DNA of 64,000 nt from a virus (taxonomy: Duplodnaviria; Caudoviricetes), in IMG/VR virus record IMGVR_UViG_3300032132_000748, one strand, 5' to 3'. How positions within the stretch are numbered: the first letter of the stretch is position 1; every line of letters starts with the position of its first letter. This document shows positions 1,500 through 2,035 of the stretch, in pieces. The translations under genes and the position numbers were made by a program. Below the pieces are notes generated by a model. That model was not told the DNA's origin. It did not search any database and saw only the letters and a list, made by a program, of their open reading frames with translations.

Positions 1500-2035
1500 C
1501 AGGCGTGTAGAATCAAATCGCTGACGGTTGACCCTGAAGGGGGTTTTGATACACTAGGCGCACAAACGTAGGGAAGCCAAAGAGTGAGGCGCTGAAGGAA
1601 ACGGGAAACCGGAGATTTCAGATAACTGTGTGCGAGTCGCAGTCCTACGATGACTAAGGTTTTAACCTCTTTGCACCTTAAGCAAGGACAGTATGTGGGT
1701 ACGAGTGCATCTATGCAGGATGTAATCGTCTACGTACTAAAAGAGGCAGACCATTCCGCTAGATCCGGTTTGGGCGCGCACGTCTTGCACCGAAAGACGA
1801 GGGTAGAGCTACCATAAAGTTCTCGAAGCTCATCGTAACGAGCAGGCTGTAGGTGTTGCAGAACAATCTGAAAGTTGGGAGCTTATCAAAGCACGCAGGG
1901 TGTGACTTTGAGACGTAACCATGATGTCCCCTAACATCGAAGATTGGTTGAACCTTCAATGAGGTTGCGCAGTCAACTTGTAAGCAGATCACTGGTCGGT
2001 CAACGAGGACAGACTGTGAGCAAGGCATCCTCACC
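1500..2035 (+). ncRNA. candidate large (~530 nt) structured ncRNA
   Basis: No credible ORF; many nested stems, GNRA tetraloop, T-loop-like hairpin; lies in a tRNA cluster. Confidence 0.5.

What the first reader, a model, noticed from the sequence alone, without database searches (positions are those of the whole stretch)
1500..2035. Candidate large ornate ncRNA (~530 nt)
Nested helices: GTGT..ATCAAA/TTTGAT-ACAC; CGTAGG(1567-1572)/CCTACG(1644-1649) enclosing CTGAA/TTCAG with CGG-GAAA-CCG and a T-loop-like hairpin ACTGTG-TGCGAGT-CGCAGT; CCTCTTT(1666-1672)/AAAGAGG(1740-1746) enclosing GTACG/CGTAC; CGTCTT/AAGACG; AACCT/AGGTT; GTGAG/CTCAC. Size and tRNA-cluster context match the GOLLD/ROOL class, but family identity is unverified.
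Basis: partly seen in the sequence, partly recalled or inferred. Interest (0 to 1): 0.7.

Follow-up and report, generated by a model that had tools for sequence, protein, structure and literature searches.

The report
Novel tRNA-flanked structured phage RNA
A giant marine phage carries, inside its tRNA gene array, a conserved and intricately folded RNA of about 390 bases that matches no described RNA family and sits between two tRNA-shaped elements that probably act as cutting signals.

Summary
The 530-nt stretch is not one RNA. It holds three things: a conserved sigma-70-type promoter (1528-1555), an 84-nt tRNA-shaped cloverleaf (1567-1650), and a 386-nt multi-helix core RNA (1651-2036). The core is closed by a 5-bp terminal helix and contains an H-type pseudoknot. 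A second tRNA-shaped element (2037-2154) follows directly.

Covariance models built from the window alone find the homologous places in both relatives. In the first two thirds of the core, 94-97% of pair cells are standard pairs, and 26 of 54 pairs change on both sides. Slid controls give 29-54% paired. Indels are not multiples of three, and no frame is conserved.

Rfam 15 gives no match, so this is not GOLLD, ROOL, OLE, a group I or II intron, RNase P RNA or tmRNA.

My best reading is a new stable phage ncRNA cut from tRNA-operon transcripts by RNase Z and RNase P. This is inferred, not shown. Its function is unknown. Only three independent sequences exist, and I could get no expression data. 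The scan had noted this block before only on this same window.

The parts
1528..1555 (+). Sigma-70-type promoter: TTGACC, 16-nt spacer, TG-extended TACACT. The predicted start is near 1562.
   Evidence: Consensus scan. L007 has the same hexamers and spacing at the homologous place (8590-8617), but a different spacer sequence. L131 has no such site; there the core follows tRNA-Gln directly.
1567..1650 (+). tRNA-shaped cloverleaf #1. Acceptor-like stem 1567-1573/1643-1649. D-like arm 1576-1578/1588-1590. Anticodon-like arm 1592-1596/1617-1621, carrying a GAAA-capped extension where the anticodon loop would be. T-like arm 1626-1630/1638-1642 with a 7-nt loop. Unpaired A1650 sits at the discriminator position. 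No CCA is encoded.
   Evidence: The MFE is a cloverleaf here (z -2.8, 45% of the ensemble) and in L007 (z -2.2). The T-like arm has 4 compensatory pairs and the acceptor stem 1. The three SNPs among the TARA variants all fall in loops. The Rfam tRNA model and ARAGORN do not call it.
1651..2036 (+). Core structured RNA, 386 nt. It is the conserved unit: 370 nt in L007 (8699-9068) and 341 nt in L131 (145-485).
   Evidence: Eight collinear sequence anchors with similar spacing in all three sequences. Covariance models R1, R2 and R3 find the homologous places. Pair counts. No Rfam match.
1651..1655 (+). Terminal helix P1, 5' strand. It pairs with 1971-1975 and closes the core.
   Evidence: The GACU/AGUC core of the helix is invariant in all three sequences. 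The helix is longer in the relatives: 6 bp in L007 and 7 bp in L131. It shows no covariation, so it rests on conservation alone.
1656..1679 (+). Hairpin H1 (1656-1660/1675-1679). Its loop holds the 5' strand of the pseudoknot (1666-1672).
   Evidence: 100% of cells paired, with 1 compensatory pair.
1740..1746 (+). Pseudoknot 3' strand. It pairs with 1666-1672.
   Evidence: 94.7% of cells paired across the three sequences. The CM alignment counts 1 pair changed on both sides; in my by-eye register there are two. The pseudoknot was not part of the model that made the alignment.
1690..1738 (+). Long hairpin H2, variable in length and sequence.
   Evidence: Present in all three sequences. 10 of 20 pairs change on both sides.
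1751..1843 (+). Four successive hairpins: H3 at 1751-1773, H4 at 1781-1799, H5 at 1805-1823 (with the conserved loop CCAUAA) and H6 at 1828-1843.
   Evidence: Model R1 scores L131 at 43.7 bits (E 7e-12) and L007 at 20.4 bits (E 1.6e-4). 96.9% of cells paired and 14 of 22 pairs changed on both sides; slid controls give 29-48% and 0-3 pairs. RNAalifold predicts the same four hairpins on its own.
1864..1966 (+). 3' domain. Long-range helix H8 (1864-1869/1941-1946) encloses the long hairpin H9 (1876-1921) and hairpin H10 (1922-1939). Hairpin H11 (1951-1966) follows.
   Evidence: Between the window and L007, 24 of 25 cells are paired and 10 pairs change on both sides; slid controls give 6-9 paired and 0-1 changed. 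L131 has analogous helices by inspection, but model R2 did not find it at E<=1. H10 has no counterpart in L007. This is the weakest part of the model.
1976..2036 (+). 3' tail with hairpins. Its length varies (61 nt here, about 45 in L007, 25 in L131), and it abuts the next tRNA-shaped element.
   Evidence: Its sequence is not conserved.
2037..2154 (+). tRNA-shaped element #2. It has a 7-bp acceptor stem, D and T arms, and an extended anticodon stem that encloses a 47-nt insert. It follows the core directly in all three lineages.
   Evidence: blastn gives 72% identity to L007. Folds have z -4.1 here and -3.0 in L131. The extended anticodon stem differs in sequence but stays paired in the three lineages. 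No Rfam tRNA hit.
1124..1196 (+). tRNA-Gln. In L131 it directly precedes the core.
1212..1496 (+). 94-aa ORF with a hydrophobic N-terminus. It lies between tRNA-Gln and the promoter and is absent from L007 and L131.
   Evidence: GC is 0.39, against about 0.50 in the RNA.
2158..2604 (+). 148-aa Cys-rich ORF, read by eye as a possible homing endonuclease. It is an insertion absent from L007 and L131.
   Evidence: It has no Pfam hit, and its relatives lie on unrelated phage contigs.

Best explanation
Window 1651-2036 (+ strand) encodes a new, stable, compactly folded non-coding RNA of a giant marine phage. The fold has a terminal closing helix, an H-type pseudoknot and about ten further helices.

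The RNA is transcribed with the phage tRNA array. In the window and in L007 it has its own sigma-70-type promoter (1528-1555). In L131 it would be made by read-through from tRNA-Gln.

I infer that host tRNA-processing enzymes cut it out. An RNase Z-type cut after the discriminator of the upstream tRNA-shaped element (or of tRNA-Gln in L131) would make its 5' end near 1651. An RNase P cut at the 5' end of the downstream tRNA-shaped element would make its 3' end at 2036.

Shown here: homology, conserved helices with compensatory changes, + strand orientation, absence of coding, and no match to any Rfam family. Inferred: transcription, the exact ends, and the processing enzymes. Unknown: what the mature RNA does. 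My leading guess is a scaffold or catalytic RNA acting in the phage's RNA and tRNA economy, in the way GOLLD and ROOL are thought of.
For: Homologues: two independent relatives were found through neighbouring genes. All show the same order: tRNA-Gln, core, tRNA-shaped element, tRNA-Glu.

Anchors: eight collinear anchors have spacings of 24/26/23, 64/66/53 and 72/68/72 nt, and so on.

Model searches: single-sequence covariance models hit exactly the homologous places as their best non-self hits.

Pair counts:
- 96.9% paired with 14 of 22 pairs changed on both sides.
- 94.4% paired with 12 of 32 changed, including a pseudoknot that was not in the model.
- 24 of 25 cells paired with 10 changed in the 3' domain, window against L007.
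- Slid controls: 29-54%; 6-9 of 20-24 cells (about 29-39%).

Other structural support: RNAalifold reproduces the hairpins independently. A shuffle test gave 13 conserved stems against 5.4 +/- 2.4.

Strand: 16 of 155 cells are G-U, which would be C-A on the other strand. MFE z is -1.84 and -3.07 on the + strand and +0.26 on the - strand.

Transcription and processing:
- A conserved promoter is present at homologous places.
- The flanking elements fold as cloverleaves with 7-bp acceptor stems.
- A 7-bp acceptor stem is named as a major RNase P determinant, and a tRNA-like Y RNA is cut by RNase P, in PMC4201824.
- All tRNA genes here lack an encoded CCA, so an RNase Z-type 3' cut is expected for the array. 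This follows from established knowledge of tRNA maturation.
Against: - Only three independent sequences exist, so no proper statistical covariation test (R-scape) is possible.
- CM-made alignments lean towards the model's structure.
- The 3' third is weakly supported. R2 scores L007 at only 16.1 bits (E 0.03), with chance hits at 14.3 and 12.6 bits, and it misses L131.
- The window's own folding z-score is modest at -1.84.
- Both flanking cloverleaves fail the Rfam tRNA model and have atypical T-loops. Recognition by RNase P and RNase Z is therefore plausible but unproven.
- The P1 closing helix never varies, so it rests on conservation only.
- Nothing here points to a specific function.
Confidence: 0.6

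Rival explanations
1. The region is a structured spacer with no function of its own. Its folds exist only to help the folding, processing or stability of the neighbouring tRNAs and tRNA-shaped RNAs, or to absorb host RNases. It is degraded after it is cut out.
For: It always lies between tRNA or tRNA-like elements. No partner protein or target is evident. The tail and the hairpin tips vary freely in length. L134, a more distant relative with the same tRNA-Gln to tRNA-Glu interval, has no core homologue.
Against: A spacer would not need a pseudoknot, a closing helix, conserved loop sequences (for example the H5 loop) and more than ten helices. These are kept across lineages whose neighbouring protein is only about 40% identical. 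The window and L007 give it its own promoter and its own upstream cloverleaf.
Confidence: 0.2
2. It is a divergent member of a known large RNA family: GOLLD, ROOL, OLE, HEARO, raiA, a group I or II intron, RNase P RNA or tmRNA.
For: Its size and its place in a phage tRNA cluster resemble GOLLD and ROOL (10.1101/2024.12.08.627333). A relative (L134) carries a probable group I intron inside a tRNA in the same interval (19.5 bits, E 0.024).
Against: There is no Rfam 15 hit at E<=10 on the + strand in the window or in L007, even with a 0.65-kb search space and lax filters. ARAGORN finds no tmRNA. The flanks are complete, separate cloverleaves and not the two halves of one gene, so it is not an intron. 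The order of helices (H1 crossing the pseudoknot, then serial hairpins) does not follow the group I P3-P8/P7 scheme; that comparison is my own.
Confidence: 0.04
3. It is a cis-regulatory leader, such as a riboswitch or attenuator, that controls the downstream gene.
For: A promoter lies upstream. In the window, a 148-aa ORF begins at 2158.
Against: That ORF is absent in L007 and L131. In both, a tRNA-shaped element and then tRNA-Glu follow the RNA. No terminator or anti-terminator and no start-site sequestering helix is conserved. No riboswitch model matches.
Confidence: 0.04
4. It encodes small proteins: the + strand 55-aa ORF at 1650-1817 or the - strand 140-aa ORF at 1759-2181.
For: Both ORFs exist. 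L007 also has an ATG-started ORF beginning at the homologous position (8698-8841).
Against: A 2-nt indel right after the shared start shifts the frame between the window and L007, and L131 has no ATG there. The spacings between anchors differ by lengths that are not multiples of three. Six-frame tblastn finds similarity only where the nucleotides of the tRNA-shaped element are conserved, and there in several frames at once. Pfam finds nothing.
Confidence: 0.02

Closest known systems
GOLLD and ROOL large ornate RNAs of phages and prophages
   Same: They are large, elaborately folded RNAs with pseudoknots and no known protein partner. They are encoded in phages, often near tRNA islands, and GOLLD sometimes has tRNAs inside or linked to it (10.1101/2024.12.08.627333). 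The function is unknown in both cases.
   Different: There is no sequence or structure match to either Rfam model. This RNA is smaller, at 341-386 nt against roughly 580 nt for ROOL and over 800 nt for GOLLD; the ROOL size is from memory. It is bracketed on both sides by tRNA-shaped elements. It is known from only three marine giant-phage lineages. Multimer formation is untested.
RNAC and RNAD of bacteriophage T4
   Same: They are stable small RNAs of unknown role transcribed from the phage tRNA region (PMC3014915). From memory, they are matured from the same precursors as the tRNAs.
   Different: From memory, the T4 RNAs are far smaller, about 120-140 nt. No homology was tested or is expected.
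tRNA-like elements used as RNase P / RNase Z cutting signals (MALAT1-mascRNA, MHV68 tRNA-miRNA precursors, mitochondrial tRNA punctuation; all from memory)
   Same: A non-decoding cloverleaf sits next to a non-coding RNA and would define that RNA's end through tRNA-processing enzymes.
   Different: Those systems are eukaryotic, viral or organellar. Here both ends would be set in this way, in a bacterial virus, and cleavage has not been shown.
YrlA-type tRNA-like Y RNAs bound by Ro60 (PMC4201824)
   Same: They are tRNA mimicry in bacteria and phages that also encode RtcB and Ro60. One YrlA is an RNase P substrate. According to earlier notes of this scan, this genome encodes Ro60 and Y-like RNAs elsewhere.
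   Different: Neither the core nor its flanks carry the GNCGAAN0-1G Ro-binding motif. No YrlA model matches. In the flanking elements the 5' and 3' ends meet at the acceptor stem, as in tRNA, and not in a Ro-binding stem.

Membership tests
GOLLD RNA | Match to the Rfam covariance model, whose conserved part is the 3' domain | tested here: not met
   No hit at gathering score or at E<=10.
GOLLD RNA | Encoded in a phage or prophage near tRNA genes | tested here: met
   It lies between tRNA-Gln and tRNA-Glu in a phage-like contig.
ROOL RNA | Match to the Rfam covariance model | tested here: not met
   No hit at E<=10.
ROOL / GOLLD | Forms RNA-only multimeric cages | not testable with these tools
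   This needs mass photometry or cryo-EM of the transcript.
OLE RNA | Match to the Rfam model, and association with the oap genes in anaerobic Firmicutes | tested here: not met
   No hit. The context is a marine phage.
Group I intron | Match to the Rfam Intron_gpI model, and flanks that join into one continuous gene | tested here: not met
   No hit in the window or L007. The flanks are two complete cloverleaves. The same model does give a weak hit on the tRNA insert in L134, so the test can detect weak cases.
Group II intron | Match to the domain 1-4 or domain 5/6 models, and an intron-encoded reverse transcriptase | tested here: not met
   The only weak D1-D4 hit lies elsewhere, at 845-975 (16 bits). 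There is no RT ORF.
tmRNA / RNase P RNA | Match to the Rfam models, or an ARAGORN tmRNA call | tested here: not met
tRNA (applied to 1567-1650) | Cloverleaf with a 7-bp acceptor stem | tested here: met
   The MFE is a cloverleaf in the window and in L007. The arms are supported by compensatory changes.
tRNA (applied to 1567-1650) | 7-nt anticodon loop, consensus T-loop, and a score above threshold with the tRNA models | tested here: not met
   A hairpin extension (window) or a 3-nt loop (L007) replaces the anticodon loop. Rfam tRNA and ARAGORN give no hit. It is therefore a mimic and not a decoding tRNA.
Y RNA (YrlA type) | The GNCGAAN0-1G Ro60-binding motif in the terminal stem (PMC4201824) | tested here: not met
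   The motif is absent from 1556-2160 and from both homologues.

The most novel reading that the evidence does not exclude
The 386-nt core is the founding member of a new class of large phage RNA. It would be released from the tRNA array by RNase Z and RNase P through purpose-built tRNA decoys at both ends. It would act on its own, either as a ribozyme or as a self-assembling RNA particle in the manner of the ROOL and GOLLD cages, within a giant phage's takeover of host tRNA and RNA metabolism.
Probability: 0.15. Interest if true: 0.85.

Novelty: new variant of a known kind. Interest (0 to 1): 0.6.

Why it matters
Bacterial and phage RNAs longer than about 300 nt with many conserved helices and pseudoknots are rare. 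Those whose roles are known are mostly ribozymes or cores of large machines, and GOLLD and ROOL were recently shown to build RNA-only cages. A further unrelated family in the same genomic niche, a phage tRNA island, suggests that this niche repeatedly breeds large functional RNAs.

This one also comes with a built-in, testable maturation scheme, because tRNA-shaped elements sit at both ends. If the scheme holds, it would be a bacterial-virus counterpart of tRNA-punctuated RNA processing. It would also give a defined transcript for structural work.

Tried and rejected
- Rfam at gathering score on the whole window, and at E<=10 on 1-7000, on 1490-2160 and on L007 8540-9180. The only hits were chance-level and on the minus strand: phi29 pRNA at 17.7 bits (gathering score 100) and ilvH at 16 bits.
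- INPHARED phages with megablast and blastn: no match.
- No whole genome is held for this window.
- IMG/VR scans with the HNH-like ORF gave only non-syntenic hits. Scans with ORF94, ORF 1-351 and the 319-aa protein alignment found nothing.
- IMG/VR scans with three DNA motifs of the RNA: 0 hits.
- JGI metagenome scan with the protein alignment found nothing.
- JGI metagenome scan with a 17-mer from tRNA-like #2 gave 112 loci. By blastn they were all chance matches.
- GTDB genome contigs with two family motifs: 0 hits.
- The closest relative's contig (P0002, 61% identical protein) could not be read because the sample file is too large.
- More distant AcrVA2-like and TilS-like relatives (L124, L125, L134, L136) have no core homologue by blastn or by model R1 with filters off.
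- MAFFT alignments of the variable hairpins were out of structural register. A home-made structure-aware aligner failed in the 3' part. I therefore used CM-made alignments.
- Model R2 for the 3' third did not recover L131.
- I considered and dropped three ideas: an array of decayed tRNA genes (no U33 or T-loop patterns, no tRNA-model hits); an SD/anti-SD mimic in the pseudoknot (the CCUCC core is not conserved); and a giant Y RNA (no Ro motif).

Full report
**Context**

The window is phage-like. It encodes RtcB, an NAD-dependent DNA ligase, a short TilS-like PP-loop protein and a polynucleotide-kinase-like ATPase. Its contig is 859,269 bp long, and no prokaryote genome is held for it.

It carries five tRNA genes plus a weak sixth. 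All are on the + strand, and none has an encoded CCA. The finding lies between tRNA-Gln (1124-1196) and tRNA-Glu (2590-2663).

**Observation**

The 544-nt stretch folds only slightly better than shuffles on the + strand (z -1.84) and no better on the - strand (z +0.26). Single-sequence folding therefore does not settle whether the helices are real.

**Homologues**

Nothing similar exists in the INPHARED phage collection. I found relatives through neighbouring proteins.

- The 319-aa protein at 3281-4240 has only three other clusters among 5.8 billion. One more turned up in a full HMM search.
- Their contigs gave two independent syntenic lineages. L007-L011 are TARA Oceans scaffolds whose protein is 39% identical. 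L131, identical to L133, comes from Logan and JGI.
- A third, closer lineage (P0002) could not be read.
- Both readable relatives keep the order tRNA-Gln, candidate RNA, tRNA-shaped element, tRNA-Glu.
- The window's 94-aa ORF (1212-1496) and its 148-aa Cys-rich ORF (2158-2604) are absent from both relatives and have lower GC. I read them as insertions.

**Not coding**

- Eight short sequence anchors are collinear in the three lineages. Their spacings differ by lengths that are not multiples of three, for example 24/26/23 and 64/66/53.
- An ATG-started ORF begins at the same conserved position in the window and in L007. A 2-nt indel directly behind the start shifts the frame, and L131 has no ATG there.
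- Six-frame tblastn finds similarity only over the nucleotide-conserved tRNA-shaped element, and there in several frames at once.
- Pfam finds nothing in the 140-aa minus-strand ORF.

**Dissection**

1. *Promoter, 1528-1555.* This is a sigma-70-type site: TTGACC, a 16-nt spacer, then a TG-extended -10 hexamer. L007 has the same hexamers and spacing at the homologous place, but an unrelated spacer. I read it as DNA signal, not RNA structure.

2. *tRNA-shaped cloverleaf, 1567-1650.* It has a 7-bp acceptor-like stem, a 3-bp D-like arm, and an anticodon-like arm whose loop is replaced by a GAAA-capped extension (in L007, by a 3-nt loop). It also has a 5-bp T-like arm with a 7-nt loop.
   - Both versions fold to a cloverleaf as the MFE, with z -2.8 and -2.2.
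   - The T-like arm changes on both sides at 4 of 5 pairs.
   - The three SNPs among the TARA variants all fall in loops.
   - tRNA models do not recognise it.
   - L131 lacks both the promoter and this element. There the core follows tRNA-Gln directly.

3. *Core RNA, 1651-2036.* This is the conserved unit: 386 nt here, 370 nt in L007 and 341 nt in L131. In all three lineages it is followed at once by a second tRNA-shaped element (2037-2154). That element has a 7-bp acceptor stem and an extended anticodon stem that encloses an insert. The stem covaries between lineages.

**Fold of the core**

MAFFT alignments of the variable hairpins were out of register. I therefore built three covariance models from the window sequence alone and let them align the relatives.

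- *R1 (1740-1852, hairpins H3-H6).* It finds L131 at 43.7 bits (E 7e-12) and L007 at 20.4 bits (E 1.6e-4). It finds nothing else in 97 kb. On that alignment, 96.9% of cells are standard pairs and 14 of 22 pairs change on both sides. Sliding the partners by 1-3 columns gives 29-48% paired and 0-3 such pairs. RNAalifold predicts the same four hairpins unaided.
- *R3 (1646-1752, H1 and H2).* It finds both relatives at about 25 bits. With the pseudoknot 1666-1672/1740-1746 added, 94.4% of cells pair and 12 of 32 pairs change on both sides; slid controls give 36-54%. The pseudoknot was not in the model, so its 94.7% pairing is not an artefact of the alignment.
- *R2 (1853-1980).* It recovers only L007, at a weak 16.1 bits, with chance hits at 14.3 and 12.6 bits. 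In that pairwise alignment 24 of 25 cells pair and 10 pairs change on both sides; slid controls give 6-9 paired and 0-1 changed. L131 has analogous helices by inspection.

Other points on the fold:

- The terminal helix 1651-1655/1971-1975 is invariant in its four central pairs and is longer in the relatives.
- A cruder, alignment-free test found 13 three-way conserved stems against 5.4 +/- 2.4 in shuffles that preserve the anchors. None of 150 shuffles reached 13.
- Sixteen of 155 paired cells are G-U, which fixes the + strand.

**Family tests**

Rfam 15 gives nothing on the + strand at E<=10, even when only 0.65 kb is searched. This excludes recognisable membership of GOLLD, ROOL, OLE, HEARO, raiA, group I or II introns, RNase P RNA, tmRNA and the YrlA Y RNAs.

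The Ro60-binding motif of bacterial Y RNAs (PMC4201824) is absent. The models found no second copy in the window or in more distant relatives. Two family-specific motif scans of IMG/VR and of GTDB genomes returned nothing.

**Mechanism**

*Shown:* a conserved, non-coding, + strand RNA structure with a promoter upstream and tRNA or tRNA-shaped elements abutting both ends in every lineage.

*Inferred:* the array's tRNA genes lack CCA, so an RNase Z-type cut after the discriminator is the expected 3' maturation step. Applied to the upstream cloverleaf, or to tRNA-Gln in L131, this cut would create the core's 5' end. RNase P acting on the downstream cloverleaf would create the core's 3' end. A 7-bp acceptor stem is a major RNase P determinant, and a tRNA-like Y RNA is known to be cut this way (PMC4201824).

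The released RNA would be closed by its terminal helix. What it then does is unknown. The genomic niche is that of GOLLD and ROOL (10.1101/2024.12.08.627333) and of the T4 RNAs C and D (PMC3014915).

**Limits**

- There are only three independent sequences.
- The CM alignments are biased towards the model.
- The 3' domain is weakly supported in L131.
- The flanking cloverleaves have atypical T-loops.

**Verdict**

This is a real structured RNA that matches no family in Rfam or in the papers searched, though that negative rests on limited searches. It lies in a known kind of niche. I rate it a new variant of a known kind, with interest 0.6.

Noticed in passing
window 873-1121; L007 8236-8471; L133 978-1026: The ORF-free block between tRNA-Asn and tRNA-Gln is 81% identical to L007 over 215 nt that include tRNA-Asn. 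In L133 a piece of it lies upstream of tRNA-Asn, while Asn and Gln are adjacent there. It looks like another conserved, movable RNA module of the array.
   Followed up: partly
window 2037-2154; L007 9069-9169; L131 486-610: This is a tRNA-shaped element with an insert in the anticodon loop, conserved in all three lineages. The extended anticodon stem differs in sequence but stays paired. The insert is 47 nt, about 34 nt and about 62 nt long, and 17 nt of it are identical between the window and L007.
   Followed up: partly
window 3201-3267; L007 about 9918-9985; L131 about 1148-1210: A weak tRNA hit (43 bits) lies directly upstream of the 319-aa gene. It is conserved at 75-78% identity in both relatives.
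   Followed up: no
L134 5877-6150: A more distant relative has, between tRNA-Gln and tRNA-Glu, a tRNA whose anticodon loop holds an insert of about 215 nt. The insert gives a weak group I intron hit (19.5 bits, E 0.024). The same contig encodes a TROVE (Ro60) protein at 1277-3226.
   Followed up: partly
L134 about 5713, 6153, 6337: A motif of about 30 nt recurs three times beside tRNA genes. It may be a promoter or a processing signal.
   Followed up: no
window 1718-1723 with 1924-1929; L007 8766-8770 with 8971-8975; L131 200-205 with 406-411: The apical part of hairpin H2 is complementary to the bases just after the conserved UGAUG, in all three lineages and with entirely different sequences. 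This may be a long-range loop contact. It could also be chance.
   Followed up: no
window 1212-1496 and 2158-2604: Two low-GC ORFs (0.37-0.39) are inserted into the RNA array and are absent from both relatives. The second is Cys-rich and looks like a homing endonuclease, but it has no Pfam hit.
   Followed up: partly
window 757-795: A strong hairpin followed by a T-run (terminator-like) ends four bases before tRNA-Asn. I saw it only by eye, and the consensus scan did not list it.
   Followed up: no
L007 1571-4525 (- strand): The TARA relative carries a second array of eleven tRNA genes on the minus strand. It has ORF-free gaps of 200-420 nt that might hold further structured RNAs.
   Followed up: no
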